DNA of 64,000 bases from Escherichia phage EcS1. Position 1 is the first letter of the stretch. Every line of letters begins with the position of its first letter. A program made the position numbers and the translations under genes. The notes under the pieces were generated by a model. It had not been told where the DNA came from and searched no databases. It saw only the letters and a list, made by a program, of their open reading frames with translations. The stretch lies in sequence record NC_055721.1, one strand, 5' to 3'. This document shows positions 9,206 through 52,666 of this stretch, piece by piece.

Positions 9206-9211
9206 ATAAGT

Positions 9212-14708: not shown

Positions 14709-14728
14709 TATAAATAAACTTATAAATA
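14709..14728 (+). promoter_or_regulatory. Tandem late promoters (two TATAAATA boxes) upstream of gene 24
   Basis: Boxes at 14709-14716 and 14721-14728. Confidence 0.6.
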
Positions 14729-14740
14729 AACTTATAAACA
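14709..14740 (+). repeat. Tandem 12-bp direct repeat (TATAAATAAACT x2.7) carrying two perfect TATAAATA boxes
   Basis: tataaataaact tataaataaact tataaaca read directly. Confidence 0.85.
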
Positions 14741-14755
14741 AAAGAGGAATGTGCA

Positions 14756-16036: not shown

Positions 16037-16070
16037 AAAAAAAAGGGAACCATATGGTTCCCTTTTTTTG
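16035..16070. terminator. Bidirectional terminator between convergent 24 and rnlB (A10-GGGAACCATATGGTTCCC-T7)
   Basis: Palindromic hairpin flanked by A-run and T-run. Confidence 0.8.
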
Positions 16071-16073
16071 TTT

Positions 16074-17078: not shown

Positions 17079-17119
17079 AAATCACCATATTAAAATAATT
17101 AATCTTCTAGCCCCAGGCT

Positions 17120-17127
17120 TATAAATA
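17120..17127 (+). promoter_or_regulatory. Orphan TATAAATA box in loop of AGGC/GCCT hairpin, no adjacent + strand gene
   Basis: Perfect box; nearest + gene (hoc) is 660 nt downstream. Confidence 0.3.
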
Positions 17128-17176
17128 GGCCTCTGAACCATTATATCGAATATATCACATATATTCTTAAAGCATA

Positions 17177-17485
17177 TTAGAACTTAATTTCAACCCATTC
17201 GCCATCACGTTGACAACTACGCCATTTGGCTTCAATACCTTCATCTTCGAGCCATTTAAGGAAAACGTCTTTATATTTCGAGAATTTTGAAACATTCTTC
17301 AAAGGATAATAATGGAATTCTCTGCGTCCTTGTTTAGCAACATCAGTGATACACTTTTCAAAGTCTTTTTTAAGTTCAGTGTATTCTGAACTTGAAATAG
17401 AATCGGCAATAGCACCATAGTAAGTAGCTAATTTAGTAGTACGTGTCATTTTAGGCCTCGGTTTTGGATAAGGTAGCGTGTGCAT
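17177..17485 (-). CDS. Hypothetical protein (24.2-like position); true start may be internal (MTRTTKL)
   Basis: ORF only; synteny. Confidence 0.45.
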   Translation of the reverse strand: MHTLPYPKPRPKMTRTTKLATYYGAIADSISSSEYTELKKDFEKCITDVAKQGRREFHYYPLKNVSKFSKYKDVFLKWLEDEGIEAKWRSCQRDGEWVEIKF

Positions 17486-17726
17486 TGATATTTTTAACCA
17501 ATTTTTTGTGATGCAAAGTTGATGTAGTCATTCGCTTGCGATAAACAACTTTCTCGCGTGATTTGAATTTGATTTTAAGCTTTTCACCTTCAGCCCAATG
17601 TTTAGCAGCTTCTCGAGCTGAAATACCTAATTTTTCAGCTACATCACCAAATGTCATTTTTAAATCTTCAATCATTGTATAAATTTGAACAGCAATATTC
17701 ATAGTCACCTCATGTTTGTAGGTCAA
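17451..17726 (-). CDS. Hypothetical small protein with possible helix-turn-helix (24.3-like position)
   Basis: ORF; segment FGDVAEKLGISAREAAKHW resembles an HTH. Confidence 0.4.
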   Translation of the reverse strand: MTYKHEVTMNIAVQIYTMIEDLKMTFGDVAEKLGISAREAAKHWAEGEKLKIKFKSREKVVYRKRMTTSTLHHKKLVKNINAHATLSKTEA

Positions 17727-17786
17727 TTATACTCAATATTCTTATAGCATAAATACACTATATTTCATAATAAGAGGACACATCTT

Positions 17787-19124
17787 ATGGCTATTCCTTC
17801 AGTAACGATTACCCCAGTTAATGCCTCACCACAACTTGGTCAGACATTAACTATCAATTCAGTAGTTGAATTCGACCCAACAGATGTTTATACATCGTAT
17901 AAATGGGAACTTTCTGGCGCAGATACAGGCGTTACTACTGCAACATACACTAAAGCCAATATCACAAGTGCTGATGCTGGTTCTTACGTATTAAAAGTTA
18001 TGCATGGTGTTGATGCAGGTTCTGCAACTGAAACCGCTTCAAGTCCTGCCGTTATTACTACTTTACCGGCAACAACTGTTTCTATTGTTTCAACCACTAC
18101 TGACATTTATGTCGGTGATACATTAACTATTACTGCTACCCCAACTGGTGTTCCTTCTGGCGCAACAGTAGGCGCATATGAATGGTCTAAAGGTGGTACT
18201 GTAGTTTCGGGCCAAACTACTTCTACATTGACTAAAACAGTTGCGGCTGGCGATGCCGGTTCTTATACTGCTAAAGTATCTTATACTGTAACAGGCCAAG
18301 CACCAATTAAAACTGCTGCATCTAATGCTATCTCTGTTACTGTTGGACCTGCATTAGCATTTGCTACTAACCTTAATGCAACAGCTTCTGTATCAACAGG
18401 CCAAGCTCTTACCCTAACTGTAGCAGCATCCGGTGGTAAATCTCCATATACATATCAATGGAAGAAAGGAAGTGCTAACATAGGAACTAATTTAAATACA
18501 TTTATAGTTCCTTCTGCGGATTCAACAACTGCAGGAACTTATACTGTTGAAGTGACAGATGCTGCAAGTCATAAAATCACATCAGCTTCTTGTGTTGTTA
18601 CAGTGGTGCCTGCTTTATCTTTGAGCACCGATTTGTCTGCGACTAAATCAGTTGTTTCAGGTAAAACTCTTACTCTAACTATTGTTGCAGCTAATGGCAA
18701 AACGCCTTATACATATCAATGGAAAAGAGCTGGCGTTGAAATCCCAAGTGAAACAGCTGCTACATTTACTAAATCTGCGTCACCAGCGGACGCAGGTACG
18801 TATACATGTGAAGTGACAGATGATAATAACGATAAAATCACATCTAATACATGTGTTGTAACTGTTAGTTTATTGCCTGATTTAGAAGTTCTTTGGACTG
18901 TACATCCTATCCCATGGCGAGATACAAGTTTCACTCCGTTAGGTTATTGGGTATTAGATGAAATCTTACTTCAAAAAGCTGATGGCAAAGACTGGAAAAC
19001 TGATTACGCTACTTATCATTACACAGAAGAAGTTCAAACTATTTTAGAAGCATTTAATGCTATGGGTGAAGTTGAAATTCAAGACTCGCGTAATGGGTAT
19101 ATCCACAAAATGAGTTTAATTTAA
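17787..19124 (+). CDS. hoc: Hoc, highly immunogenic outer capsid protein (four Ig-like domains plus C-terminal capsid-binding domain)
   Basis: 445 aa; repeated Ig-like units with YxWxxxG and AGxYTCEVTD motifs; C-terminal HPIPWRDTSF...GKDWKTD...QDSRNGYIHK matches recalled T4 Hoc C-terminus. Confidence 0.85.
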   Translation: MAIPSVTITPVNASPQLGQTLTINSVVEFDPTDVYTSYKWELSGADTGVTTATYTKANITSADAGSYVLKVMHGVDAGSATETASSPAVITTLPATTVSIVSTTTDIYVGDTLTITATPTGVPSGATVGAYEWSKGGTVVSGQTTSTLTKTVAAGDAGSYTAKVSYTVTGQAPIKTAASNAISVTVGPALAFATNLNATASVSTGQALTLTVAASGGKSPYTYQWKKGSANIGTNLNTFIVPSADSTTAGTYTVEVTDAASHKITSASCVVTVVPALSLSTDLSATKSVVSGKTLTLTIVAANGKTPYTYQWKRAGVEIPSETAATFTKSASPADAGTYTCEVTDDNNDKITSNTCVVTVSLLPDLEVLWTVHPIPWRDTSFTPLGYWVLDEILLQKADGKDWKTDYATYHYTEEVQTILEAFNAMGEVEIQDSRNGYIHKMSLI

Positions 19125-19133
19125 GAAGGTTTT

Positions 19134-19631
19134 ATGGCTGATAAATGGACAACAGTTAACCCAATCCCGTGGCGAGATACAAGTTTTACGTATCTCCCTT
19201 ACTGGCTTTACGATATTATAGTTAAAGCCTTTAAAGACGGTAATGATTGGCGTGATTATTCTGAAACGAAATACAAATTAGAATTTGATACCTTGATTCA
19301 AGCATTCGAAGACTACGATGACATTTCAGTTATTGAATCACGTAATGGTAATCTACATGATTTATCTAATTTTACACCAGTAACAATCACAGCTAAATCA
19401 CCTGTGCCAGCTTTTAAAGTTGGTGACCCAGATTTAGTTATCAGCGCATTGTTCACAATTGATCCAGTTAAATTAGGGCAGCATGCAGTGTTATCTGTTG
19501 ATGCTTCTGGACATGCTGTATTAAGCAGCAGTGCTGTACCATCCGTTAAGGCTGTTTCGGCTGGGACAACTGTGGTGACATGTACTATTGGTGATGTATC
19601 AGAAACAATTAGTTTAGTTGTAACTGTATAG
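19134..19631 (+). CDS. Hoc-anchor-domain protein with C-terminal Big_2-like Ig domain (second putative capsid decoration protein)
   Basis: N-terminal 75 aa (NPIPWRDTSFTYLPYW...DGNDWRDY...ESRNGNLH) paralogous to the Hoc C-terminal domain of the preceding ORF; C-terminal VDASGHAVLSSS..VKAVSAGTTVVTCTIGDVSETISLVVTV has Big_2 pattern. Confidence 0.75.
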   Translation: MADKWTTVNPIPWRDTSFTYLPYWLYDIIVKAFKDGNDWRDYSETKYKLEFDTLIQAFEDYDDISVIESRNGNLHDLSNFTPVTITAKSPVPAFKVGDPDLVISALFTIDPVKLGQHAVLSVDASGHAVLSSSAVPSVKAVSAGTTVVTCTIGDVSETISLVVTV

Positions 19632-19632
19632 C

Positions 19633-19666
19633 AAAAAGGGAGAGCTTACGCTCTCCCTTTTTTATT
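19633..19666. terminator. Bidirectional terminator between convergent 19134..19631 and 19662..20375
   Basis: AAAAA-GGGAGAGC-TTAC-GCTCTCCC-TTTTTT. Confidence 0.8.
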
Positions 19667-20375
19667 TTATAACTTGGAAACTTGAATTACGCGTTTCACG
19701 AACGCGAACTAACCCATCACGCTTAATGTAATATAAAAGACTTAATATCGTATCAATACCGTAGTGGTGTGGGAACGAATGCGGATTCACTTTCCATTCT
19801 GGGTTCTTTGTAATCCATTCATAAATCCACCAAGGTAGAGTTACATAAGTTAATCCACGTCCAATTTGAGCTAATGTAGGACTGAAATCTTTTGGAAGCT
19901 CAAATACCTTTTCAGATTCAATAATCTGTTCAATAGCTTTTTCAAGAGCAGGGAGATCTTCTTCAGTCATAGGCTTGGTTGGGATAGTTTCAATGCCTTC
20001 GCTATGAATAACTGTAACAACTTCACCAATTGGAGCTTGAATAGAGTTAATGATTTTAGCTTCAACGGAAGGAGCTCCGATAGAATCGATCAAAAGTGTC
20101 TTGGCTTCATCTTTAGCTTCATCTTTAAAAACAGAAGTGCCAGTGAGTTCATCATCAGCTTGAATCAAATCAGAGATACTCATTCCGCCAATATCTTCAG
20201 GCATTGGTTCAGAAGCAAGTTTTTTCATTTCTTCTGACAAGTCAGCAACCATGTTATCAAATGACTTAGTTTTCTTTAAAGTTATGTTGAAAGTAAGAGC
20301 GTAGTCGGCCAGTTTTTCTTTGGCTTCTTTTTTGTCTAGCTCACGAAGTTCGTCAATATAAATTTTATCAATCAT
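19662..20375 (-). CDS. Hypothetical acidic protein in the position occupied by inh in T4 (identity not confirmed)
   Basis: 237 aa ORF; synteny between hoc and uvsW; sequence not recognised. Confidence 0.5.
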   Translation of the reverse strand: MIDKIYIDELRELDKKEAKEKLADYALTFNITLKKTKSFDNMVADLSEEMKKLASEPMPEDIGGMSISDLIQADDELTGTSVFKDEAKDEAKTLLIDSIGAPSVEAKIINSIQAPIGEVVTVIHSEGIETIPTKPMTEEDLPALEKAIEQIIESEKVFELPKDFSPTLAQIGRGLTYVTLPWWIYEWITKNPEWKVNPHSFPHHYGIDTILSLLYYIKRDGLVRVRETRNSSFQVIK

Positions 20376-20390
20376 AGTATAGCCTCAGTG

Positions 20391-20398
20391 TATAAATA
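20391..20398 (+). promoter_or_regulatory. Late promoter TATAAATA upstream of uvsW
   Basis: Perfect box 30 nt before GTG start. Confidence 0.5.
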
Positions 20399-30786: not shown

Positions 30787-32850
30787 CTACCCTTGAATAA
30801 AACGTTCTGGGATTTCTTGGATGTCTATTAAAGAAGCTAAAAGAGCTAGTCCTTCTTTGTTAGGATTAGGCTTTGAAGCCTTCACAAATGAGGTAAAGTT
30901 CAATGGTTCAGAAGTGTCCATAGCAACAAGTTCACCATTCTCAAACAATGCATCACCATCATACACTATAGTAGATTCTTCAATTTGTTCTGAAGTCATG
31001 ATTTCAGCTTGAATGAACTTTTGGTTACTATATTGAATACCGTCATTATAAGAAGCATCAGTTATAGAATTAATGGATACCATTGTTCCACGAGGTAAAA
31101 TGATTTCCATTTCAGAAGGCATATTACTCAAATCACCAGGGAAGATGACGTTAATTTTATGACCACCATCAATAGCCCAACCAACTGTAACTCTGATATC
31201 ATTTTCAAATTGGCCTGGCATATCTTTTGCTTCTTCGGAACCTGCATCAATGTTAAGTTCACTACGAACTTCTTCAGGAGCTAAACCAATAGCCGAATTT
31301 CCTTTCCAACCACCAAAGATGATAGGAGCTAATGAAGTAGAAACATAATTACGGAAATAGAATACACGGTTTTTAATCAATGATTCCCAAATAGGCTTAC
31401 GTATAGTTTGAGAACGCCATAACGTAATATTTTCTGGGATGCGGTCACCACGTTCAAAAGCAGCATCAATTCCATCAATAGCTTCTAAGACTTCATAGCG
31501 ATTCATTATATTGCTACTTTGCTCAGACCAACGGCCAAGCAAATAATCATTAATATCATGATAACCAGAACCAACATATTCTCTGATACCACGTTGCTCT
31601 TTTACTGGATATTGTAAAGGAGTACGAGAGCCAGCTATACCATTAATATTATCTGATACGTTTTTGGCATAGTTTTGAAGTGATTCTTTGATGAACTTAG
31701 TTCTTAACATAGTCCATTCAGCTTGAGCACGTTCTTTTGACATGCCATAATTATCATCCAATTGTTTATCTATAAAATCTTCTTTAAAATCTTCAGTCAT
31801 ATCCATGCATAATTTAGCATATTCTTGCATACTTTTAACAGAAGTTAAAGGAGCTTGACCTATATTTTTAATTAAAACTTCAGTCATTCGATCTGACATT
31901 CTAGCAATAGTATCTTCATCAATAAATCTTAAATTTTTTAATCTATAACCAATACCGTTGACGGCTCTTTCTGCTGATCTTGTTCTAGCAGCCTTAGAAG
32001 TTAGCACCAATTCTAATTCGCGTGCTTCTGGGACTAAATTAGCAGTTGCCGGCTTATTAAACTTAGAAGCTCTGGCTTCAATTTCATCCCATTTAGGGTC
32101 ACTAAATGAATCCGTAGCCATTGATTGGGATGCAGCTACTTGTCGGCGCGAAACCTTAGTACGATTAATTACTGAACGATCTGAACGATCTTTTTCAATT
32201 TCAGCAATAGAACCAGCAAAAGCTTCATCTTTAGTTACATTTTCGCCTGTTTTCTTAGAAACATACACATCGCCGACCTTAGATTCAACCTTAGTGTATA
32301 GCTCAGAATTGATTTCAGGGATGCCAGAGATATCCTCTAGACCACGAGACTTACGATAGATAAGAATATATGCGTGCTTTGAAGTAAATGTATAGAGCGC
32401 ATCCAGGACTTTAAATTGACCACCTGTACGAGCCATTACCAGACGTTGCATGATGCGTTGAACAGTTCGTTCTTGGCCTTTCATTTTCTTGGCCGGGAAA
32501 CGGAACATCACAGCATCCATACGGTTCTTTTTAACTACTGAATACACAGTGTCGAAGATAGTATTCAATGCACCTACAGGATCGGAACCTAATCCACCTT
32601 TAAGTTCAGCAGGTGTTCCTTTATCACTTAGTGACATCAGAATAACGTGTGCGTATTTGTCGCCTTGTTTAATCTGTTTAGTCGCATCACCTTGAGACAA
32701 ATATGAAACCATACGAGCAACTAGCTTATCATTACCTGGAACTTTAATAGACCAGAGTTGTGGAACTTTTGCTTTTGGGTTCAAATCAATGACTGGATAT
32801 CCATTTTCGGATTCGCTGTCAAAAACTTCAACCAATAAATTATCAGTCAT
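30787..32850 (-). CDS. alt: Alt, packaged ADP-ribosyltransferase
   Basis: 687 aa; QKRGIREYVGSGY, NRVFYFRNFVSTSL, EMEVILPRG, LIQAEVMT-like blocks match recalled T4 Alt. Confidence 0.9.
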   Translation of the reverse strand: MTDNLLVEVFDSESENGYPVIDLNPKAKVPQLWSIKVPGNDKLVARMVSYLSQGDATKQIKQGDKYAHVILMSLSDKGTPAELKGGLGSDPVGALNTIFDTVYSVVKKNRMDAVMFRFPAKKMKGQERTVQRIMQRLVMARTGGQFKVLDALYTFTSKHAYILIYRKSRGLEDISGIPEINSELYTKVESKVGDVYVSKKTGENVTKDEAFAGSIAEIEKDRSDRSVINRTKVSRRQVAASQSMATDSFSDPKWDEIEARASKFNKPATANLVPEARELELVLTSKAARTRSAERAVNGIGYRLKNLRFIDEDTIARMSDRMTEVLIKNIGQAPLTSVKSMQEYAKLCMDMTEDFKEDFIDKQLDDNYGMSKERAQAEWTMLRTKFIKESLQNYAKNVSDNINGIAGSRTPLQYPVKEQRGIREYVGSGYHDINDYLLGRWSEQSSNIMNRYEVLEAIDGIDAAFERGDRIPENITLWRSQTIRKPIWESLIKNRVFYFRNYVSTSLAPIIFGGWKGNSAIGLAPEEVRSELNIDAGSEEAKDMPGQFENDIRVTVGWAIDGGHKINVIFPGDLSNMPSEMEIILPRGTMVSINSITDASYNDGIQYSNQKFIQAEIMTSEQIEESTIVYDGDALFENGELVAMDTSEPLNFTSFVKASKPNPNKEGLALLASLIDIQEIPERFIQG

Positions 32851-42619: not shown

Positions 42620-42819
42620 AGGTAATTTTCCTCTACGTATTTGAATACGCTTTTGTGTGTAAAGTGTCCACCATCAACAGTCTCTTCAGTATCGTAATCA
42701 CGAATATCTAAAGCAACACCGTCTTCATTATGATGGACAACAAAGATGAAACATTTACGTTCTTCGATTTCTTCAATCAAATCGTAGAGCTCACTAATAT
42801 CTTCTAAATAGTCACACAT
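42616..42819 (-). CDS. Hypothetical acidic small protein
   Basis: 67 aa ORF. Confidence 0.45.
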   Translation of the reverse strand: MCDYLEDISELYDLIEEIEERKCFIFVVHHNEDGVALDIRDYDTEETVDGGHFTHKSVFKYVEENYL

Positions 42820-43718
42820 TAAAAGTCACCATGAGCCACTTGCCAACATTCAACACCGATACGACGCCACATTTCTACTACCTGTGCACGGTCATCGACA
42901 GCCAGAACTACATCATAATCTTGGACAATATCGTTCCAGAAGATTTCTTCTTTCACAACGTCATCTTTACGTGGGTCGCCTTGCTTGCGCTGGAAATGCT
43001 TTTCAGTCTGAATCATGTTTTCGTTTAGCCAATTGATAGTAGCCACACGATGTTTCAGAGGCTCATCTTTGTTACCTGATTCACGTCCAGAGACGGTAAG
43101 GATTTTAAACCCTTGTTGTTGCAGCAATTTAAGAAGCAGTACAACCATCTCACGAGGAGTATCGTCACAGAGCTTATCAAGGTCGTAAGGAGAGCGGTGT
43201 TCGTTATCGGCTAATGTTCCATCAAGGTCAAAGATAACCGCTTGAGGGCGCCCTTCAGGATAATCAGCGGATACATATTTCATTGGAACAGACATCTTAG
43301 CGTACATAGAACGTAAGACATCAATTGGAACAGCCTTTTCACCACGATACTGGTTACGTTTCAGAAGCTCGGTCCATGGAATATCAAAACGTTCGATTTC
43401 AAGCTTAGTTTCATGTTTAACAGAGAATTCTTGCCACACTTTCAGAGTAGTAGGGTTCAAGTTCGTATCGGCAATGATTACGCCTTTACATCCATCAAGA
43501 GCTAACAATGTTTGAGCTGAAGAGAATTGTACTTTAGAGACAGCTTTCTCTTTTTGCTTTGTATATTTGTATTGGTTACGATATTCGAGCCCAAACAACT
43601 TTTCACGGAAGTCATCACGTGACAGGATATAGAAGCCAGGGTTCTTAGCAACATATTCATTAGCCCAAGTAGTTTTACCTGAACCTGGAGCACCTTGAGT
43701 CAAAATAATCTTTTTCAT
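42819..43718 (-). CDS. pseT: Polynucleotide 5-prime kinase / 3-prime phosphatase
   Basis: 299 aa; MKKIILTQGAPGSGKTTWA P-loop, AVIFDLDGTLA phosphatase motif, QGDPRKDDVVKEEIFW, VVEMWRRIGVECWQVA match recalled T4 Pnk. Confidence 0.96.
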   Translation of the reverse strand: MKKIILTQGAPGSGKTTWANEYVAKNPGFYILSRDDFREKLFGLEYRNQYKYTKQKEKAVSKVQFSSAQTLLALDGCKGVIIADTNLNPTTLKVWQEFSVKHETKLEIERFDIPWTELLKRNQYRGEKAVPIDVLRSMYAKMSVPMKYVSADYPEGRPQAVIFDLDGTLADNEHRSPYDLDKLCDDTPREMVVLLLKLLQQQGFKILTVSGRESGNKDEPLKHRVATINWLNENMIQTEKHFQRKQGDPRKDDVVKEEIFWNDIVQDYDVVLAVDDRAQVVEMWRRIGVECWQVAHGDF

Positions 43719-43927
43719 TCTTTCACCAATGATTTAATAAAGTCTTGGAGTTCTTTAGAAGCACGACCCCAGTTTTCATGATATCTTAAAGTATGCGCTT
43801 CTAAAATAGAAGCCATTTTATGAGAATCACATGATTGCTGTCGTTCTAGGTGCCGGCCATAAATTGTTGCTCTGACTTCTGATTCATAAATCAGCCCACG
43901 AAGTTGCTCTAGATGTTCAAGAGTCAT
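43715..43927 (-). CDS. Hypothetical small protein
   Basis: 70 aa ORF. Confidence 0.45.
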   Translation of the reverse strand: MTLEHLEQLRGLIYESEVRATIYGRHLERQQSCDSHKMASILEAHTLRYHENWGRASKELQDFIKSLVKE

Positions 43928-44099
43928 TAGTCACCTGTAGCTCTACAAAAGTCATTAAGGCGGTTCTAGCCGAGCTTGCCATGCCGTATAGCTCTTGAAC
44001 ACGTGAGCTACGCATATGCAAACCTAAATTCAAAGCGCGTTGTGCCTGTTCATAAGCTTCAAACAGCCCTTTCCATACGTTATATTGTTCAAGAGTCAT
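43917..44099 (-). CDS. Hypothetical small protein
   Basis: 60 aa ORF. Confidence 0.4.
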   Translation of the reverse strand: MTLEQYNVWKGLFEAYEQAQRALNLGLHMRSSRVQELYGMASSARTALMTFVELQVTNDS

Positions 44100-44335
44100 A
44101 GTTTGTCAATCTCATTGAATATATTAAGCAAAGTTTTGTTAAGTTCGTATTCACTTAAATCGATTTCTTCAATTCCGTCTTTACGGCTAATAGACCCAGA
44201 CCGAATACGATTAGTGGTTATCTGATTAACCCCGCCTGTGCATTTTGCACTTTCACATAAAGAGTACATCTTTGCTTTTAATTGAGTTTTTAGGTCCGGC
44301 GAATTAATCATATGTACAAAATCAAGACCAGTCAT
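44096..44335 (-). CDS. Hypothetical small protein
   Basis: 79 aa ORF. Confidence 0.45.
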   Translation of the reverse strand: MTGLDFVHMINSPDLKTQLKAKMYSLCESAKCTGGVNQITTNRIRSGSISRKDGIEEIDLSEYELNKTLLNIFNEIDKL

Positions 44336-44497
44336 AACTTAATTCCTTATACAAAGCTTCGCGAGCAGCCTTAAGTTCTTTGGCTGATTCATATGCACAT
44401 TTATCGTCGATTAATGACATTGCAACTTGTGTCTGACGTTGACCATGTAGTTTGGCTTTGAGTTCATAAGCTGCAAACAAATCTTTCAATTTATCAT

Positions 44498-44995
44498 TCA
44501 TACGTCAAGTTCCTTATACAAGTCTTCACGAGCTTCTTTCAGAATTTTACCTGTTTCGCGTAAGAATGGTTCTACTTTTTCACCAGTAACGCGTCCAGAA
44601 TTAACTAATGATAAATGACGACCATGACGTAAAGCAGCTTGTTCAAAGGCATGAACAATACTACGCTTACGGTCTCGTTCAAGGACTTCTTCTTCGAAGA
44701 TAGGATAGTCATTAACAGAAGACATAATGGAGTACCAATCGCGTAAAGGAATCTGAGTTTCTTCGTTCAGTTCAAATGTACGATCTACTGTATCACTATT
44801 AGGCGAATAGTATTCTACACGATGGACCATATCGCCACCGTCTGTGAGATGCCAGATATAACAAAATGTTGCTTTCTTTTCAAGAGGTGTACGAATACAA
44901 GAACCAAGCTGCATAAGCTTACGAAGCTCAGCATTTTTGATTTTGGTAAGACGTTCAGGTGAAGAGACAAAACTGTTATAACGTGGAGCAGCCAT
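44498..44995 (-). CDS. Hypothetical protein
   Basis: 165 aa ORF with upstream GC hairpin and GAGGA RBS. Confidence 0.5.
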   Translation of the reverse strand: MAAPRYNSFVSSPERLTKIKNAELRKLMQLGSCIRTPLEKKATFCYIWHLTDGGDMVHRVEYYSPNSDTVDRTFELNEETQIPLRDWYSIMSSVNDYPIFEEEVLERDRKRSIVHAFEQAALRHGRHLSLVNSGRVTGEKVEPFLRETGKILKEAREDLYKELDV

Positions 44996-45024: not shown

Positions 45025-45040
45025 AGAGCCCGAAGGCTCT
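45025..45040 (-). other. Intercistronic hairpin AGAGCC-CGAA-GGCTCT upstream of ORF 44498..44995
   Basis: Read directly. Confidence 0.55.
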
Positions 45041-45197
45041 AAGATTTTAAAATCAGTTTAATAGCTTTATATGCAAAGATTAATATCATACCAAATGCTA
45101 TTAAGCCAGTCATACCACTAGCACAACCAACGCTGCAACGCATGCAAGCAGAGCAACAACCAATCCTGCACAAAACAATGTAGCGCCTAAAGTCATT

Positions 45198-45494
45198 TTA
45201 CTTTTCACACTTCACTTCCTTCAAAGGAGCTCGATAATAACAAATGACACCGTTAGCATCTTTTACATAACGATTAACGTCATTCAACCATACTCTAAAT
45301 TCCTGTGATTCATTATATGGCATTCCTACGAAAGCAACACCATCAATCACTTTAACTTGCCATTGACCTGTCCAAGGTTTAATCGGGTCAGGCCAACTTG
45401 GGTCAACACGTTGCACAGGTTGTAGCTCAGGGACACTCTGGGAGCATCCAACCAAAAAGATAGATAAACATATGGCTAGAGATTTAAGTTTCAT
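45198..45494 (-). CDS. o-spanin (Rz1-like outer-membrane lipoprotein; T4 pseT.2 equivalent)
   Basis: Signal peptide with lipobox LVGC (MKLKSLAICLSIFLVGCSQS); directly downstream of i-spanin. Confidence 0.7.
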   Translation of the reverse strand: MKLKSLAICLSIFLVGCSQSVPELQPVQRVDPSWPDPIKPWTGQWQVKVIDGVAFVGMPYNESQEFRVWLNDVNRYVKDANGVICYYRAPLKEVKCEK

Positions 45495-45847
45495 CTGGTC
45501 GCCTCCTGCATATCCTGAGCGAACTTATTGAAGCTGTCATTGATTTGTTTCTCAACCAATTTAGGCTTCTTAGCTACTGTATCACTTCTTTTTGCGTCTG
45601 TAAACATCTTAGCATCAGACGTATCTCTTGCTAGACGATTTGCCTTACGTTCATCATCTAAAGCACTAAGACGAGTGAATCCATCTTTCAAATCTGTTAT
45701 CTGCTTATCTTGTTCTTTAACAGTTTGTTCAACATGAGTTAAAGATTCTTTTAAGTTATCGATACGGGCTTCTTGAATCTTTACAAAAGCAAAGACACTA
45801 AGAACACCTAGTATCAACAACATGTATCCACCATTTATAGTAGGCAT
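45491..45847 (-). CDS. i-spanin (Rz-like; T4 pseT.3 equivalent)
   Basis: N-terminal TM helix GYMLLILGVLSVFAFV then charged coiled-coil-like region; overlaps o-spanin start. Confidence 0.65.
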   Translation of the reverse strand: MPTINGGYMLLILGVLSVFAFVKIQEARIDNLKESLTHVEQTVKEQDKQITDLKDGFTRLSALDDERKANRLARDTSDAKMFTDAKRSDTVAKKPKLVEKQINDSFNKFAQDMQEATR

Positions 45848-46341
45848 AATTTAACGATTGTCTCAAAGATATCGTCTTGAGTCATATTGTTGATAAGAAT
45901 ATGATGGGGTGAATCAGAAGCTGAAATCTTAAAGCAAGTTTCAACCATTGAAGCCATTTCGTCAGCAGTTAAACGAGAATGCTGGATTCCAAGACGATGA
46001 TTACCATAGATTGGGTCAACAATAATGTAACATTTGTTGCCACTCAGATGGACATTAGGCTGGCTGATGTTAATGAACACTTCAGCGCCATATTTACCCA
46101 ACTGGTTTTCAAGGAAGCTCTTCATTTCTTCTACTGCGTCAGGCATAGCATCACGACGAGCTTCAGTGACTTTGTTGTTGTATTCTTTTTGCTTTTTACG
46201 TTTAGAAAGATTACGTGCCATGGCAATACGAAGATCGGTGATGTAACCAATAGTCTTAGAACCTTTAAAGATACTGATTCCATCATGACGATCACCGTAT
46301 TGAGCCATAACCATTTCATTTGTAATAAGTTGCATATTCAT
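45835..46341 (-). CDS. Alc-like protein (assigned by size and synteny; start moved to ATG after GAGGA RBS)
   Basis: 168 aa from MNMQLIT; lies between rnlA and spanins where T4 has alc (167 aa); sequence itself not verified. Confidence 0.4.
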   Translation of the reverse strand: MNMQLITNEMVMAQYGDRHDGISIFKGSKTIGYITDLRIAMARNLSKRKKQKEYNNKVTEARRDAMPDAVEEMKSFLENQLGKYGAEVFINISQPNVHLSGNKCYIIVDPIYGNHRLGIQHSRLTADEMASMVETCFKISASDSPHHILINNMTQDDIFETIVKLCLL

Positions 46342-46370: not shown

Positions 46371-46399
46371 ATCTTATCACAACAAAATGAGGATGTAAA
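46371..46399 (-). promoter_or_regulatory. Sigma70-like early promoter (TTTACA-17-TAAGAT) inside 15-bp inverted repeat upstream of alc-like gene
   Basis: IR arms 46348-46362 and 46380-46394; downstream arm contains the GAGGA RBS. Confidence 0.5.
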
Positions 46400-47572
46400 C
46401 TACTCTTGTTCGATTACAATTTCTTTCTTATATTCGTCTGGAACGAAGAACTTGTGATTCTTGTTAAAAGCTTCGTTAAGCTGTGGAATTAACTTATCTA
46501 GGTCTAAACCACCTGTGAACGCTTTCATCAGAATTGGGAACAGATAAGAACGGTCTGCATCTTTAAAGATTGTTTGAGCAGAGATAGCGAAGTCTTTACG
46601 GTCACGACCAGCTAGTTGCTTATAAGTTGTTTGAACTAAGTCTAATGCATGACGCAAGAACTCTAAATGAATAGTTTCAAACTTATCAATCTTAGTGATA
46701 GCCCATTCATCGCCTGCGAACATAGAACGAAGGTCATCAGAACCACCAGACACGACAGATTCGAAGAGAGCTTCGTTTTTAGTGATGGAATCTTTAGTAC
46801 GATGCAAAGCAACATACCAATCAGTTTTGAGCTTAAAGTTCAAACCGTTTTCCATTACAAAAACATAACCTTCTACACCTTCTTTGGCGCGAATGCCAGG
46901 CACAAATCGTTCATCGGCAGGAACATTAAATGCTTCTACCAAATGAGGACGAAGCATTGCATCTTTAAACAATTCTTCATATGGAACATATTCACCAGTC
47001 TTATTTTCACGAACATTCAGAAGAATCAGGTCACGTTTACTATAAGCCAGAACGATACGGTTATCTGGTGCAACGTATTCCATGTTACAAGTGAAGCCAT
47101 CTTTAGTAAGTTGAGTCACACGTTTCAAGAATTTTTCATAACGTGGACCATTGATAACTTGTAGTGCTGCATAAGCTTGTTCAGAAGAAATAGAAGCCTT
47201 AGACTTCAAGAACAGTTGGTCGTTATCTACAAAGCTAGAGATTAGAGAACCATCAGCCTTATCCATCATCAATTTGATTTTAGTAAGGTCCAAGTTCATG
47301 GTAAATGGAGTTTCATCTAAGTTAAAGAATTTTTCCATCGGACGAGCTGCAATACGAGTAGGCTTACCATCGACCATTTCAAACATAATGCCGCGGCACT
47401 CTAGAGCGTCAGGCAGAAGCCAATCAGAGTAAGATGCATAGTTATAACTGAAGATACGATACTCACCACCAAACGGCGTCTGGTAGTCACGGAAATAGAA
47501 TTTAGACTGGTCTTTTGGGTCAGTCAATTTCATCAGGTTTTTGTACAAATCATGTTCTTGTTTAGTAATCAT
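46400..47572 (-). CDS. rnlA: RNA ligase 1
   Basis: 390 aa; YRIFSYNYASYSDWLLPDALECRGIMFEM, EKFFNL, KADGSL, RIVLAY, ILLNVRENKTGEY match recalled T4 Rnl1. Confidence 0.95.
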   Translation of the reverse strand: MITKQEHDLYKNLMKLTDPKDQSKFYFRDYQTPFGGEYRIFSYNYASYSDWLLPDALECRGIMFEMVDGKPTRIAARPMEKFFNLDETPFTMNLDLTKIKLMMDKADGSLISSFVDNDQLFLKSKASISSEQAYAALQVINGPRYEKFLKRVTQLTKDGFTCNMEYVAPDNRIVLAYSKRDLILLNVRENKTGEYVPYEELFKDAMLRPHLVEAFNVPADERFVPGIRAKEGVEGYVFVMENGLNFKLKTDWYVALHRTKDSITKNEALFESVVSGGSDDLRSMFAGDEWAITKIDKFETIHLEFLRHALDLVQTTYKQLAGRDRKDFAISAQTIFKDADRSYLFPILMKAFTGGLDLDKLIPQLNEAFNKNHKFFVPDEYKKEIVIEQE

Positions 47573-49593: not shown

Positions 49594-51855
49594 TCAAAGT
49601 TTACAAGAAGAGCAATCTTCTTCTTTTGGAACTTCGATTTCATAATCATCAGTACCAGAACCATCACGAGTATTATGATAGTAAGCTGTCTTACCACCGA
49701 AGTACCACAGATGAAGCATATCATCCATCATGACTGACATCGGAACCTTACCTTTAGGGTAGTTCTGTGGGTCATAGTACATGTTAGTAGAAATAGACTG
49801 ACATACGAATTTCTGCATAATTGCTACTTGATTCAAGTAACCTTTATTACCAGATTTCGCTAACTTCCAAGCATAATCATAAAGATCAACATTAGTATCA
49901 ACATTAGGCACAACTTGGTTAAAGGAACCTTCTTTCGATTCTTTAACACTTACAGGCCCACGTGGCGGCTCGATACCATTAGTGCTATTTGATACCTGGC
50001 TCGAAGATTCACAAGGCATGAGCGCGGATAAGGTACTGTTACGGATACCGTAACTTCTGAGGTCTTCCCGCAACTGTTCCCAGTCACAAACGTACGATGG
50101 GGCTGCGAGTTGGTCAATCTTTTTATTGTACCAGTCGATAGGTAACTCGCCTCTAGACCAACGAGTGTCTGAATAATACTCGCAATGGCCTTTTTCTTTC
50201 GCTAATTTGACTGATGCTCTGATGAGTGCATATTGAAGTCTTTCCATCATTTCGTGAGTTAAATCGTTTGCATCATTATATGATGCAAAGTTATCAGCTA
50301 ACCAAGCAGCATAGTTCGTGATACCAACACCGAGTGCACGACGTTTTTTAGCTTTCAAAGCTTCCGGGACAGGATAACCTTGATAGTCTAATAAATTATC
50401 TAAAGCACGAACTTGTACTTCGGCTAATTCGTTAATTTCGTCTTGGTTCTGCCAATCGAAGTTACCGAGTACATAAGCAGATAAAGTGCAAAGTGCGATT
50501 TCTGGGTCTTCACCACCAACGTCTTTAGTAGGAAGCGCGATTTCACAGCACAAGTTTGATTGCTTAACCGTAGCCACATCACGAATAAAAGGACCATACT
50601 CACCGACGTTATCTACAAAGTAAGGGTAAATACGAGCCGTACCTGAACGTTCAGTAAAGAACAATTCGAAGAGCTCGCGAGCTTTAATTCGTTTCTTACG
50701 AACCGTAGGATCTTTTTCTAAAGCTTCATAGAAATTACGGAACTTCAGAGGGTCAGCAAAATACGCTTCGTAAAGTTCGCCTTTCATGATGTCAGGACTG
50801 AACAACGTGATGTAATCATTTTTAACCAAACGTTCAAACATCAGGTCATTAATCTGAACACCATAGTCTAGATGACGAATACGGTTTTCATCTACACCTT
50901 TGTTGTTCTTCAGAACTAACAGGTTTTCCACTTCAAGATGCCATATCGGATAATACAACGTTGCTGCACCACCACGTACGCCACCTTGTGAACAACTCTT
51001 CACTGCGGTTTGGAAATGTTTCCAGAATGGAATCACCCCAGTATGTTTGACTTCACCATGACCAATCTTAGAACCTTCAGCACGAATCATACCACCATTA
51101 ATACCAATACCAGCACGTTTACTGATATAACGAATAATAGCTTCTGCACCTTTGTTAATTGATGTCAGTGAATCACCACTTTCAATAACAACACAAGAAC
51201 TAAACTGACGAGTTGGAGTACGAACACCTGCCATAATAGGAGTAGGCAACGAAACCTTACGAGTTGAAACAGCATCATAAAAACGAACTACGTTCTTAAT
51301 ACGATGTTCACCATCATCTTGGTGCAAACACATACCGATAAGCATGAATGCAAATTGAGGCGTTTCATAAATCTTGCCAGTTGAACGATCTTTGACTAGG
51401 TATTTTTCGATTAACTGCATCGTACCAGCATAAGTGAATTCAAAGTCACGGTCGTGTTTGATTTGAGATTCAAACAACTGGATTTCTTCTGCAGACCATT
51501 TGCTTAGGATTTCGGTGTCATAAAGACCTGCGTTAACTACTGAAGAGATGTGGTCGATAAACCGAGGTGGTTCGAATTGATTGAAAACATCTTTACGAAG
51601 ACCAAACATAGCTAGATTACTTGCTACATATTGATAATCTGGTTCGTCAACTGTAATACGGTTAGCAGCAACTTTAATAACTGCTTTATGAATTTCTTTA
51701 GTGGTCATTCCATCACGCAGATGACTTTTAACTTCTTCATAAAGGTCATAAGGGTTAACGGCTATAGATGTACTTGCGCACGACCATTCAAGGACTTGGA
51801 TGATTTTACTTGGTGTAAAATCTTGACTAACGCCTGAACTTTTTATTACTTGCAT
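49594..51855 (-). CDS. nrdA: Ribonucleotide reductase large subunit (start reassigned to MQVIKSSGVSQDF)
   Basis: 753 aa from internal ATG matching recalled T4 NrdA N-terminus; C-terminal CxxC redox tail (CSSCKL). Confidence 0.95.
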   Translation of the reverse strand: MQVIKSSGVSQDFTPSKIIQVLEWSCASTSIAVNPYDLYEEVKSHLRDGMTTKEIHKAVIKVAANRITVDEPDYQYVASNLAMFGLRKDVFNQFEPPRFIDHISSVVNAGLYDTEILSKWSAEEIQLFESQIKHDRDFEFTYAGTMQLIEKYLVKDRSTGKIYETPQFAFMLIGMCLHQDDGEHRIKNVVRFYDAVSTRKVSLPTPIMAGVRTPTRQFSSCVVIESGDSLTSINKGAEAIIRYISKRAGIGINGGMIRAEGSKIGHGEVKHTGVIPFWKHFQTAVKSCSQGGVRGGAATLYYPIWHLEVENLLVLKNNKGVDENRIRHLDYGVQINDLMFERLVKNDYITLFSPDIMKGELYEAYFADPLKFRNFYEALEKDPTVRKKRIKARELFELFFTERSGTARIYPYFVDNVGEYGPFIRDVATVKQSNLCCEIALPTKDVGGEDPEIALCTLSAYVLGNFDWQNQDEINELAEVQVRALDNLLDYQGYPVPEALKAKKRRALGVGITNYAAWLADNFASYNDANDLTHEMMERLQYALIRASVKLAKEKGHCEYYSDTRWSRGELPIDWYNKKIDQLAAPSYVCDWEQLREDLRSYGIRNSTLSALMPCESSSQVSNSTNGIEPPRGPVSVKESKEGSFNQVVPNVDTNVDLYDYAWKLAKSGNKGYLNQVAIMQKFVCQSISTNMYYDPQNYPKGKVPMSVMMDDMLHLWYFGGKTAYYHNTRDGSGTDDYEIEVPKEEDCSSCKL

Positions 51856-51874
51856 TTTTGTCCCATATTGTGAA

Positions 51875-51882
51875 TATAAATA
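51875..51882 (+). promoter_or_regulatory. Late promoter TATAAATA upstream of I-TevI-like HEG
   Basis: Perfect box 26 nt before ATG, GAGGAG RBS between. Confidence 0.55.
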
Positions 51883-51907
51883 CCAAAATATAGAGGAGTT
51901 ACCCCAC

Positions 51908-52666
51908 ATGAAATCAGGCATTTATAGAATAATTAACATTAATAATAACAAATCTTACGTTGGCAGCACTATAGACTTCCAAGCAAGATGGAAACGACAT
52001 TTTTCGGATTTGAAGAACGGGTGTCATTCTTCAATCAAACTCCAACGTTCATACGATAAACATGGTAAAGATTCATTCGTTTGTGAAATAGTTGAGCAGA
52101 CTCCATATGATGAATCTATAATTTCATTAGAAGATTATTATATCATCTATTTTGATTCAAAACAAAACGGATATAATATTGCTAACGCAGCATTTGGCGA
52201 CACTTTATCGCACCACCCTAACAAAGAAGAAATATTTAAGAAAATAAGCATTTCTCTTAGAGAAAACAATGAAAAACTTTCTGAAGAAGAAAGGAAAAAT
52301 AAATTTGGAAGTAAAAGTTGTAAGAAAGGTAAAAGCTACGAAGAATTTTACGGAGCTAAAAAGGCTCAAGAAATAGGTCTTAAACTTTCAGAAAGCAATT
52401 ATAATAGACAAATGTCTGGAACTAATAATCCATTCTTTGGTAAGACACATAGTGACGAAGTTAGAAAGAGAATTTCTGCCACACAGAAAGGACGTAAGAA
52501 ACCTCATGTTAAATTAAGTATAGAAGGAACTATTTATCAATCAGTGGCAGAAGCAATGAAAGCCACAAATCTTTCTCGTAAAGTTATAGAAAGACGTTGT
52601 GGCTCTGAATTATTCATAGATTGGTTTAGACTTCATATAGCCATTTTACCTTTAATTGGAGGGTGA
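51908..52666 (+). CDS. Free-standing GIY-YIG homing endonuclease, I-TevI-like
   Basis: 252 aa; KSGIYRI..N.KSYVGST.DF.ARWKRHFSDLKNGCHSSIKLQRS, NGYNIANAAFGDT.SHHP.KEEI and C-terminal HTH-like IEGTIYQSVAEAMKATNLSRKVIERR align with recalled I-TevI; TATAAATA and GAGGAG upstream. Confidence 0.9.
   Translation: MKSGIYRIININNNKSYVGSTIDFQARWKRHFSDLKNGCHSSIKLQRSYDKHGKDSFVCEIVEQTPYDESIISLEDYYIIYFDSKQNGYNIANAAFGDTLSHHPNKEEIFKKISISLRENNEKLSEEERKNKFGSKSCKKGKSYEEFYGAKKAQEIGLKLSESNYNRQMSGTNNPFFGKTHSDEVRKRISATQKGRKKPHVKLSIEGTIYQSVAEAMKATNLSRKVIERRCGSELFIDWFRLHIAILPLIGG

What the first reader, a model, noticed from the sequence alone, without database searches (positions are those of the whole stretch)
45110..45196. 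28-codon purely hydrophobic micro-ORF immediately after the o-spanin
One nt after the o-spanin stop, the minus strand has ATG followed by MTLGATLFCAGLVVALLACVAALVVLVV and a stop. This is a single predicted transmembrane helix co-transcribed with the spanins. It could be a membrane-active lysis accessory peptide, or a chance ORF.
Basis: seen in the sequence. Interest (0 to 1): 0.3.

Follow-up and report, generated by a model that had tools for sequence, protein, structure and literature searches.

The report
Conserved tiny membrane-helix gene after o-spanin
The tiny hydrophobic reading frame after the phage's outer-membrane lysis gene is a real, conserved gene for a 32-residue single membrane helix of unknown role, already catalogued as an uncharacterised phage family, and a second unannotated one follows it.

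Summary
It is not a chance ORF. It matches phrog_26334 (unknown function). Homologues occupy the same slot in Winklervirus, Karamvirus and Kanagawavirus, under clear purifying selection (8 synonymous and 0 non-synonymous codon differences between two Karamvirus copies).

The conserved start is the GTG at 45208, not the ATG at 45196. It overlaps the o-spanin end and follows an AAGGA ribosome-binding site, giving a 32-aa product, MKSKMTLGATLFCAGLVVALLACVAALVVLVV. AlphaFold2 models one helix.

A second micro-ORF, B (45039-45113, MTGLIAFGMILIFAYKAIKLILKS), starts on A's stop (ATGA) and ends at a conserved C(UUCG)G hairpin. It has homologues after the o-spanin of Yersinia Tegunavirus phages and is annotated nowhere.

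The lysis-accessory idea is unproven and somewhat weakened:
- T4 lacks both peptides.
- Two phages with identical i-spanin membrane anchors differ only in having A.
- An A homologue sits beside a terminase in an unrelated phage.

Best reading: an accessory inner-membrane microprotein that acts by packing against another membrane protein. Interest is modest.

The parts
45110..45208 (-). Micro-ORF A: 32 codons plus stop, GTG start, product MKSKMTLGATLFCAGLVVALLACVAALVVLVV.
   Evidence: ORF listing. Matches phrog_26334 at E=1.8e-6. Homologues lie in the same slot. dN/dS is 0.10-0.27 where dS is not saturated. 8 synonymous / 0 non-synonymous codon differences between L020 and L023. AF2 models a single helix over residues 6-31 with pLDDT 84.
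45215..45221 (-). Shine-Dalgarno-like AAGGAAG, embedded in the o-spanin codons for L-K-E. The AAGGA core lies 8 nt upstream of the GTG start of A.
   Evidence: Read from the sequence. The same AAGGA lies 6 nt before the ATG in Karamvirus and Kanagawavirus and 8 nt before the GTG in Winklervirus.
45039..45113 (-). Micro-ORF B: 24 codons plus stop, product MTGLIAFGMILIFAYKAIKLILKS. Its ATG overlaps A's TGA (ATGA), and its TAG stop runs into the hairpin stem.
   Evidence: Sequence. Homologue MFMNTIIFIAILVFLYKIIKLILQS overlaps the o-spanin end in Tegunavirus. Reciprocal phmmer E values of 1e-3 and 5e-3, well above a noise floor near E=1. 6 synonymous / 10 non-synonymous codon differences, including a TCT/AGT serine switch. 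Not annotated in any record examined.
45025..45040 (-). C(UUCG)G tetraloop hairpin AGAGCC-UUCG-GGCUCU, closing the alc / spanin / micro-ORF unit. No U-run follows it.
   Evidence: Folding gives -14.4 kcal/mol, z=-2.3. Conserved at the same place with compensatory stem changes: GAGGCC/GGCCTC in Karamvirus, AAGGGC/GCCCTT in Moonvirus, GAGGGC/GCCCTC in Kanagawavirus.
45198..45494 (-). o-spanin (T4 PseT.2 homologue): lipoprotein signal MKLKSLAICLSIFLVGC and a C-terminal CYYR...C motif.
   Evidence: phrog_812 'Rz-like spanin' at E=3.6e-39. Alignment with T4 and relatives.
45491..45847 (-). i-spanin (T4 PseT.3 homologue), with an N-terminal transmembrane anchor.
   Evidence: phrog_739 'Rz-like spanin' at E=1.6e-30. 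Annotations of relatives.
46371..46399 (-). Sigma-70 / T4-early-like promoter match, TTTACA-17-TAAGAT with an extended TG, upstream of alc. It is a candidate start of the transcript carrying alc, the spanins, A and B.
   Evidence: Consensus scan only: 9/12 match, and the number of sites found is not above shuffle expectation. Assigning it as the promoter is inference.
44498..44995 (-). Downstream 165-aa gene of unknown function (phrog_4482), with its own GAGGA ribosome-binding site after the hairpin. It marks the start of a variable region that T4 lacks.
   Evidence: phrog_4482 at E=1.9e-58. Synteny in relatives. In T4 the pseT.2 stop overlaps the pseT.1 start directly.

Best explanation
Micro-ORF A is a genuine accessory phage gene.

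Shown:
- Its frame, length and N-terminal half (M-[K/R]-x(1-3)-T-L-G-A-x-L-F-x-x-G-x-x-x-A) are conserved under purifying selection in four T4-like lineages and in one unrelated phage.
- Its conserved start (GTG 45208 here) overlaps the o-spanin stop region and is preceded by an AAGGA site built into the o-spanin L-K-E codons.

Inferred:
- It is translated from the same mRNA as the spanins.
- The 2-3 N-terminal positive charges keep the N-terminus in the cytoplasm, and residues ~6-32 insert as one inner-membrane helix with essentially no extramembrane domain.
- A protein of this design can only act inside the bilayer. It therefore most likely works like the bacterial single-helix microproteins AcrZ, KdpF, CydX and MgtS, by packing its conserved half against the transmembrane part of a larger membrane protein and modulating it.

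I judge the partner more likely to be a host inner-membrane protein or a general envelope function than the spanin complex itself. That would make A a dispensable, horizontally exchangeable 'moron'-type gene. It would sit at the 3' end of a membrane-protein operon because that slot gives translational coupling, membrane-proximal synthesis and a stabilising 3' hairpin.

Micro-ORF B is a second, unrelated peptide of the same kind with the opposite charge polarity (C-terminal lysines, so N-out/C-in). It is stacked in the same slot.
For: - Conservation and selection: phrog_26334 match; the same slot in Winklervirus, Karamvirus, Kanagawavirus and the window's phage; dN/dS 0.10-0.27 with dS near saturation; L020 vs L023 differ by 8 synonymous and 0 non-synonymous codons, with differences concentrated at third positions.
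- Start and ribosome-binding site.
- Single helix; Kyte-Doolittle 3.13.
- Dispensable for spanin function: T4 lacks A and B, and T4 pseT.3/pseT.2 alone complement lambda Rz/Rz1 (PMC6139136). L013 and L014 share the i-spanin N-terminus, hairpin and downstream gene but differ by clean absence or presence of A.
- Autonomous: a search of 1.84 billion representatives found only 3 clusters. One of them (P0003, MRYTLGAKLFIAGVALALVAITVALYVVVN, E=4.7e-5) lies in a non-T4 phage between terL and small basic ORFs/dUTPase, with its own AGGAGGA site and no lysis gene nearby.
- Mode of action of single-helix microproteins: PMC7267776 (AcrZ-AcrB), PMC4325964 (CydX), review PMC12648545.
Against: - There is no expression, localisation or phenotype data for any member.
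- No partner is identified.
- The helical periodicity of conservation is only suggestive (moment peaks at 95-100 degrees, permutation p=0.09).
- A (four T4-like lineages) and B-type peptides (Tegunavirus and the window; a weakly similar Moon/S16-type peptide in two more lineages) are tightly and repeatedly linked to the o-spanin stop. That pattern is what a spanin-linked function would predict, and my 'permissive slot' explanation for it is an inference.
- Homology of P0003 rests on about 30 residues.
Confidence: 0.5

Rival explanations
1. Lysis accessory. A, and likewise B, is delivered next to the spanin complex from the same mRNA. It binds the i-spanin transmembrane anchor (or the holin/antiholin) in the inner membrane and tunes the timing or efficiency of outer-membrane disruption. 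It would be a non-essential third component of the spanin module.
For: - The start overlaps the o-spanin end in every T4-like carrier.
- Two unrelated transmembrane-only peptide families (A and B) occupy exactly this slot, upstream of the hairpin, while the neighbouring variable-region ORFs appear to be soluble proteins.
- There is precedent for a small transmembrane protein being required for lysis: LambdaSo Lcc6, 65 aa (bioRxiv 10.1101/2024.01.23.576932).
Against: - T4 spanins are self-sufficient (PMC6139136).
- L013 and L014 have identical i-spanin anchors with and without A, so there is no sign of co-adaptation.
- The P0003 homologue is not beside any lysis gene.
- In T4-like phages the spanins are not part of a lysis cassette; holin and endolysin are encoded elsewhere (PMC6139136).
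Confidence: 0.25
2. Membrane-depolarising mini-toxin. A and/or B act like type I toxin peptides (Ibs, ShoB, TisB, DinQ; 19-35 aa single helices) or a minimal pinholin. They would oligomerise and leak protons, for example to shut down host transport, block superinfection or advance holin triggering.
For: - Size and composition match that class (known from the literature; not tested here).
- B has an amphipathic, lysine-bearing C-terminus, YKAIKLILKS.
- A has small residues at positions 8, 15, 19 and 22 that could support self-packing.
Against: - No match to any toxin or holin family in Pfam, NCBIfam or PADLOC.
- A has no polar or charged residue inside the helix to line a pore.
- If the unit is transcribed early, as the promoter-like site suggests, depolarisation would risk premature holin triggering.
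- No antisense RNA or other control element is evident.
Confidence: 0.1
3. Chance or untranslated ORF. The conservation would reflect overlap with the o-spanin end or an RNA element rather than a peptide.
For: - Very hydrophobic short ORFs do arise by chance in this genome: the other three checked of the five most hydrophobic lie out of frame inside long genes.
- There is no direct evidence of translation.
Against: - Only the first 11-19 nt overlap the o-spanin; the remaining ~85 nt lie in otherwise non-coding DNA.
- Divergence is synonymous-dominated.
- The frame stays open in all carriers while the other two frames carry stops.
- No Rfam family matches and no structure is evident apart from the downstream hairpin.
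- A homologue with a strong AGGAGGA site exists in an unrelated phage.
Confidence: 0.05
4. Lipoprotein-signal mimic. A resembles a lipoprotein signal peptide (MKSK, a hydrophobic core, then LLA-C23). It would be lipidated and cleaved to a 10-residue lipopeptide, or would act as a decoy for Lgt/LspA, which process the o-spanin.
For: A Cys preceded by Ala lies at position 22/23 in the window (LLAC), Karamvirus (AVAC) and Kanagawavirus (GVAC). The gene sits directly after a lipoprotein gene.
Against: - That Cys is absent in Winklervirus (T or I) and in P0003 (I).
- The conserved part of the family is the N-terminal half, which would be the discarded signal.
- The near-invariant Cys13 is preceded by Phe, which is incompatible with a lipobox.
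Confidence: 0.04
5. Frameshift extension of the o-spanin. Ribosomes would slip near the o-spanin stop and fuse the helix to the lipoprotein. The result would be a unimolecular-spanin-like protein, with an outer-membrane lipid anchor and a C-terminal inner-membrane helix, as in T1 gp11.
For: The architecture would be attractive, and the ORFs overlap by 11-19 nt.
Against: - The frame offset between the o-spanin and A is not conserved: an 11-nt overlap in the window and Winklervirus, against 19 and 13 nt in Karamvirus and Kanagawavirus, which is a different reading-frame relation.
- Every homologue keeps its own start codon and AAGGA site.
- An in-frame TGA lies immediately upstream of the GTG, and I found no slippery heptamer in the short shift window.
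- P0003 follows a terminase, not a lipoprotein.
Confidence: 0.02

Closest known systems
PHROG family phrog_26334 (32-position profile, 'unknown function'). Its GenBank members are annotated 'hypothetical protein' in Karamvirus, Kanagawavirus and Winklervirus phages, e.g. UJJ22219.1, XQQ59566.1, QEA10712.1.
   Same: Profile match (window E=1.8e-6; Karamvirus copy 1.7e-22). Same length, same position overlapping the o-spanin end, and the same TLGAxLFCxGL core.
   Different: The window copy is the most divergent T4-like member, at 55-63% identity, and its exact sequence is not in the 15-billion-protein collection. It uses GTG, and it is uniquely followed by a second coupled micro-ORF.
Bacterial single-helix regulatory microproteins (AcrZ 49 aa, KdpF 29 aa, CydX 37 aa, MgtS 31 aa).
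   Same: A single transmembrane helix with little or no soluble domain. These are often encoded in or next to operons for membrane complexes, and they act by binding the transmembrane region of a larger protein (PMC7267776, PMC4325964, PMC12648545).
   Different: No sequence relationship. No partner is known. The gene is phage-encoded and patchily distributed.
Shewanella phage LambdaSo Lcc6 (65-aa transmembrane protein required for lysis).
   Same: A small phage-encoded single-pass membrane protein that takes part in lysis without being a holin, endolysin or spanin (10.1101/2024.01.23.576932).
   Different: Lcc6 has a 43-aa cytoplasmic domain, is encoded far from the lysis genes, is essential for lysis and acts at the pinholin step. 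There is no homology. A is dispensable in close relatives.
Type I toxin peptides (IbsC 19 aa, ShoB 26 aa, TisB 29 aa, DinQ 27 aa).
   Same: Size range and near-pure hydrophobic helix. B in particular has a comparable hydrophobic N-terminus with a basic C-terminus (comparison from general knowledge, not tested here).
   Different: No family match. No antisense RNA locus. A and B are co-translated in a phage operon rather than tightly repressed.
T4 spanin system PseT.3/PseT.2 (Kongari et al. 2018).
   Same: The immediate upstream genes are clear homologues, and A and B share their transcription unit.
   Different: A and B have none of the defining features of either spanin subunit, and T4 itself has no counterpart: the pseT.2 stop overlaps the pseT.1 start.

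Membership tests
phrog_26334 (uncharacterised phage micro-protein) | Significant match to the family profile over its full length | tested here: met
   E=1.8e-6, 29 bits, residues 4-32 on profile positions 3-31 of 32. A profile built from 10 members recovers only this family in 1.84e9 representatives.
phrog_26334 (uncharacterised phage micro-protein) | Conserved genomic position (start overlapping the o-spanin 3' end, upstream of the UUCG hairpin) in T4-like carriers | tested here: met
   Start lies 10 to 18 nt upstream of the o-spanin's last base in L001-5, L009-10, L014, L018 and L020-23. Exception: P0003 sits in an unrelated phage.
Holin / antiholin / pinholin | At least one transmembrane segment plus a charged, hydrophilic C-terminal tail | tested here: not met
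   A ends ...LVVLVV with no charged residue after K4. No holin family passes threshold; the best is Phage_holin_3_6 at E=0.45 for a relative.
Holin / antiholin / pinholin | Genetic linkage to an endolysin gene | tested here: not met
   The neighbours are alc, the spanins and phrog_4482. In T4-like phages t and e are unlinked to the spanins (PMC6139136).
Two-component spanin subunit (i- or o-spanin) | i-spanin: N-terminal transmembrane anchor plus a periplasmic coiled-coil domain. o-spanin: lipobox plus a periplasmic domain. | tested here: not met
   A is 32 aa with a helix over residues 6-31 and no periplasmic domain. It has no family-wide lipobox.
Unimolecular spanin by frameshift fusion with the o-spanin | A conserved frame relationship and a shift site linking the lipoprotein to the C-terminal transmembrane segment | tested here: not met
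   The overlap is 11 nt in the window and Winklervirus, against 19 and 13 nt in Karamvirus and Kanagawavirus, which is a different frame offset. Each copy retains its own start and ribosome-binding site.
Bacterial lipoprotein signal peptide | Invariant lipobox Cys preceded by [LVI][ASTVI][GAS] | tested here: not met
   Cys23 is replaced by T or I in Winklervirus and by I in P0003. Cys13 is preceded by Phe.
Type I toxin peptides | Toxicity or depolarisation on expression, and a cis or trans antisense RNA antitoxin | not testable with these tools
   No family match and no RNA family in the region. Toxicity needs experiment.
Membrane-complex-binding microproteins (AcrZ/KdpF/CydX type; a functional class, not a homology family) | Single transmembrane helix of under 50 aa with a demonstrated physical partner in the membrane | tested here: inconclusive
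   The helix and size criteria are met. The partner is unknown, and the conservation periodicity is only suggestive (p=0.09).

The most novel reading that the evidence does not exclude
A and B would be representatives of a previously unrecognised optional third layer of the T4-type spanin module. In this reading, bilayer-only micro-peptides are translationally coupled to the o-spanin in very roughly a tenth of Tevenvirinae genomes. They would sit beside the i-spanin anchor with opposite topologies (A N-in, B N-out) and locally destabilise or organise the inner membrane to promote or time inner-outer membrane fusion. Functionally they would be a minimal fusion cofactor.
Probability: 0.12. Interest if true: 0.6.

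Novelty: new member of a known kind. Interest (0 to 1): 0.3.

Why it matters
If expressed, A adds a conserved 32-residue membrane peptide to the gene set of several T4-like genera. It is annotated only as 'hypothetical protein' in some records and missed in others, such as X20, Kc304 and Pet-CM3-4. B adds a peptide family that no record examined annotates at all.

Repeated stacking of transmembrane-only micro-ORFs on the o-spanin stop codon gives lysis researchers a cheap, well-defined test: a one-codon stop mutant that leaves the spanin intact. The test would show whether spanin function or timing has accessory membrane factors. The presence/absence pairs (L013 vs L014) are natural controls.

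Practically, the finding shows that start-codon choice (GTG overlapping the upstream gene) is the likely reason annotation pipelines drop these genes.

The finding does not currently change any model of lysis.

Tried and rejected
- tblastn with the 32-aa and 24-aa peptides against the phage collection returned nothing, probably because of low-complexity masking. I switched to synteny-based retrieval and local HMMs.
- The search for homologous proteins refuses queries shorter than 40 aa.
- The search for related loci with the B alignment failed because no stretch was conserved enough.
- A degenerate DNA pattern for the P0003-type N-terminus found one IMG/VR hit, which is a chance match: MSLTLGAKFFMVR*, inside other coding sequence.
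- blastn with the window's A+B DNA finds nothing at E<=1e-3 because it is too diverged.
- Pfam, NCBIfam and PADLOC gave no usable match for A, B or their relatives. Rfam found nothing in the region.
- No paralogues of A or B occur elsewhere in the window.
- Comparison of i-spanin anchors between carriers and non-carriers showed no pattern.
- The helical-face conservation test was not significant (p=0.09).
- Frameshift fusion to the o-spanin and lipoprotein processing were considered and rejected on comparative grounds.
- Other very hydrophobic small ORFs in the window (31506-31592, 51087-51149, 51165-51278) lie out of frame inside a 687-aa and a 775-aa gene and are chance ORFs.
- I fetched only the first 50 kb of T4 and did not complete a whole-genome search of T4 for A/B-like peptides elsewhere.
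- I did not attempt linker-fused AlphaFold models of A with B or with the i-spanin, because the tool returns no interface confidence.

Full report
**Context.** The window is from a T4-like (Tevenvirinae) phage. On the minus strand the order is nrdB, denA, rnlA (46400-47572), alc (45835-46341), i-spanin (45491-47, PseT.3-like: 45491-45847), o-spanin (45198-45494, PseT.2-like), the reported micro-ORF, a 165-aa phrog_4482 gene (44498-44995), four small ORFs, and pseT (42819-43718). The same sequence is IMG/VR contig IMGVR_UViG_2974737508_000001, 175,437 bp. The nearest GenBank relatives are Winklervirus phages (Erwinia Virsaitis27 and Vettismorki, Serratia X20, Kosakonia Kc304), at only about 80% nucleotide identity over the spanin genes.

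**Observation.** The o-spanin stop TAA is at 45200-45198, followed by one base, then ATG at 45196, 28 hydrophobic codons and TGA at 45112-45110. The frame is, however, open from a GTG at 45208, giving MKSKMTLGATLFCAGLVVALLACVAALVVLVV (32 aa, called 'A' here).

**Start codon.** Comparative data identify the GTG as the conserved start:
- In four Winklervirus genomes the ATG position reads CTA, but the GTG is kept (MKSNLTLGA...).
- In Karamvirus and Kanagawavirus an ATG aligns with the GTG (MRKFTLGAK..., MRKMTLGAK...).
- All versions keep K or R at residue 2.
- An AAGGA motif, formed by the o-spanin's conserved L-K-E codons, lies 8 nt before the GTG (window, Winklervirus) or 6 nt before the ATG (Karamvirus, Kanagawavirus).
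- The window's internal ATG has no such site.

**Is it more than chance?** On composition alone the case is weak. Only two ORFs of at least 28 aa with GRAVY of at least 2.0 occur in the window, against 0.04 expected from shuffles. But the other three of the five most hydrophobic small ORFs that I checked lie out of frame inside a 687-aa and a 775-aa gene, so they are artefacts. Conservation settles the matter:
- A matches phrog_26334, a 32-position family of unknown function (E=1.8e-6; Karamvirus copy 1.7e-22).
- Homologues occupy exactly the same slot in 13 independent loci from Winklervirus, Karamvirus (including the contigs whose lengths match CC31 and PG7) and Kanagawavirus.
- Outside the short overlap with the o-spanin, the window copy compared with its relatives gives dN about 0.3 with dS at or near saturation. 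dN/dS is 0.10-0.27 where it can be computed.
- Two Karamvirus copies encode identical peptides yet differ at 8 codons, all synonymous. Differences concentrate at third codon positions.
- The other two frames carry stops, and no Rfam family matches.

'Chance ORF' is rejected.

**The peptide itself.** AlphaFold2 on the 10-sequence alignment models one uninterrupted helix over residues 6-31, with mean pLDDT 84. The best 19-residue Kyte-Doolittle window averages 3.13. Invariant positions cluster in the N-terminal half: T6, L7, G8, A9, L11, F12, G15 and A19, with A22 nearly invariant. The C-terminal half is variable but hydrophobic. Conservation shows a helical periodicity peak at 95-100 degrees, but this is not significant (p=0.09). 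With positive charge only at the N-terminus, the positive-inside rule predicts N-in/C-out topology. That topology is inference.

**A second micro-ORF.** A's stop overlaps an ATG (GTATGA) that opens a 24-codon ORF, called 'B': 45039-45113, MTGLIAFGMILIFAYKAIKLILKS. Its TAG stop runs into a C(UUCG)G hairpin at 45025-45040.
- Winklervirus genomes lack this ~72-nt segment precisely; there the stop of A abuts the same hairpin.
- B has a clear homologue, MFMNTIIFIAILVFLYKIIKLILQS, overlapping the o-spanin end in Yersinia Tegunavirus phages fHe-Yen9-01, phiR1-RT and TG1.
- Reciprocal phmmer E values are 1e-3 and 5e-3 in a 9,678-segment six-frame database, where the noise floor is near E=1.
- The C-terminal YKxIKL[IM]L[KQ]S motif is kept through synonymous changes, including a TCT/AGT serine switch.
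- A weaker, possibly related peptide, MDPLVVLILCVTFYKICKLAMR, occupies the same slot in Moonvirus and S16-like Salmonella phages. It is the reciprocal top hit, but at E=0.08-0.7.
- B is annotated in none of these records and matches no PHROG, Pfam, NCBIfam or PADLOC model.
- Its lysines are C-terminal, which predicts the opposite topology to A (inference).

I rate B as probably real (about 0.7), on thinner evidence than A (about 0.9).

**Distribution.** The slot between the o-spanin stop and the hairpin holds one of four arrangements:
- A alone: Winklervirus, Karamvirus, Kanagawavirus.
- B-type alone: Tegunavirus, and the weakly similar peptide in Moonvirus and S16-like phages.
- A+B: only this phage.
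- Nothing: T4 and other Tequatrovirus, in which the pseT.2 stop overlaps the pseT.1 start, plus L013, L019, L024, L026 and L032.

In the GenBank phage collection, o-spanin-like DNA is found in 836 records. A-type DNA is found in 44 Karamvirus/Kanagawavirus records plus 7 Winklervirus-group records, of which I read A in the four fetched. B-type DNA is found in about 27 plus 6 records. That is very roughly a tenth overall.

L013 and L014 share the i-spanin N-terminus, the hairpin and the downstream gene, and differ by a clean absence or presence of A.

A search of 1.84 billion representative proteins with the family profile found only three clusters. The third, P0003 (MRYTLGAKLFIAGVALALVAITVALYVVVN, E=4.7e-5), comes from a non-T4 phage whose terminase is 56% identical to those of ~60 kb Vibrio phages. 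It lies between terL and small basic ORFs and a dUTPase, has its own AGGAGGA site, and has no lysis gene nearby.

**Transcription.**
- The only promoter-like site upstream in the right orientation and position is TTTACA-17-TAAGAT, before alc (46399-46371).
- The scan as a whole does not exceed shuffle expectation, so this assignment is inference.
- There is no terminator-like site between the spanins and A or B.
- The UUCG hairpin has no U-tract.
- The hairpin is conserved with compensatory stem changes across genera, consistent with a 3'-end or mRNA-stabilising element. That role is drawn from general knowledge of T4 C(UUCG)G hairpins.

**Interpretation.** What is shown is that A is a conserved, selected coding sequence with a plausible coupled initiation site, encoding a single hydrophobic helix. 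What is inferred is translation, inner-membrane insertion, and action within the bilayer by packing against a larger membrane protein. The last follows the precedent of AcrZ, KdpF and CydX (PMC7267776, PMC4325964, PMC12648545).

Whether the partner belongs to the lysis machinery is open.
- For a spanin link: invariant coupling to the o-spanin stop, and convergence of two unrelated transmembrane-only peptides on this one slot. LambdaSo Lcc6 is a precedent for a small transmembrane lysis factor.
- Against: T4 spanins alone complement lambda Rz/Rz1 (PMC6139136), the L013/L014 presence/absence pair, and the P0003 context.

I therefore favour an autonomous, dispensable accessory microprotein (0.5) over a spanin or holin modulator (0.25). 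Toxin-like depolarisation (0.1), non-expression (0.05), lipoprotein-signal mimicry (0.04) and frameshift fusion to the o-spanin (0.02) are minor rivals. The last two fail comparative tests: Cys23 is not conserved, and the frame offset relative to the o-spanin differs between lineages.

**Novelty and interest.** A is a divergent new member of an already catalogued but uncharacterised phage family. B is an unannotated family with a narrow distribution. Small hypothetical membrane peptides are common in T4-like genomes, and no function is demonstrated, so interest is modest (0.3). The most novel reading not excluded is an optional third, bilayer-only component of the T4-type spanin module. I give it about 0.12.

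Noticed in passing
window 45039-45113 (-): A second, unannotated 24-codon transmembrane micro-ORF (B, MTGLIAFGMILIFAYKAIKLILKS) starts on A's stop codon (ATGA). It has homologues after the o-spanin of Yersinia Tegunavirus phages. The A+B tandem is seen only in this phage.
   Followed up: yes
window 45025-45040 (-); L005, L007, L013, L014: A C(UUCG)G tetraloop hairpin lies immediately after the micro-ORFs. It is conserved across genera with compensatory stem changes and has no U-tract. It probably marks an mRNA 3' end or acts as a stabiliser.
   Followed up: partly
window 45215-45221 (-) and T4 L008 ~1340-1350: The o-spanin's conserved C-terminal L-K-E codons (AAGGAA, or AAAGAGGA in T4) double as the ribosome-binding site for whichever gene follows: A, B, or pseT.1 in T4.
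   Followed up: partly
L033 3001-3093 (also L034, L035; Logan SRR34488295 and related runs): A family-A homologue (P0003, 30 aa, lacking both cysteines) lies in an unrelated phage between the large terminase and small basic ORFs/dUTPase, with a strong AGGAGGA site. This suggests the micro-gene moves between phage types.
   Followed up: partly
L013 vs L014, around the o-spanin end (1794/1797): These are near-identical flanks (i-spanin anchor, hairpin, downstream gene) with clean absence or presence of micro-ORF A. They form a natural knock-out pair.
   Followed up: partly
window 43715-44995 (-): Five ORFs (165, 59, 79, 60 and 70 aa) lie between the hairpin and pseT, where T4 has only pseT.1. 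The 70-aa ORF at 43715-43927 resembles T4 PseT.1 (shared ...GLIYESE...IYGR... motif), so this is a variable ('hyperplastic') insertion region.
   Followed up: no
window 31506-31592, 51087-51149, 51165-51278 (all -): Other very hydrophobic short ORFs rank alongside A by GRAVY. They lie out of frame inside a 687-aa gene (30787-32850) and a 775-aa gene (49594-51921), so they are chance ORFs and useful negative controls.
   Followed up: yes
window 6580-20398 (+): The T4 late-promoter motif TATAAATA occurs 16 times in the window, against 5.8 expected. Nine of the 16 lie on the + strand between 6.5 and 20.4 kb, which suggests a late-gene block there. A near-match, TATAAATG, sits inside the first codons of the i-spanin (about 45829-45836, -).
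   Followed up: no
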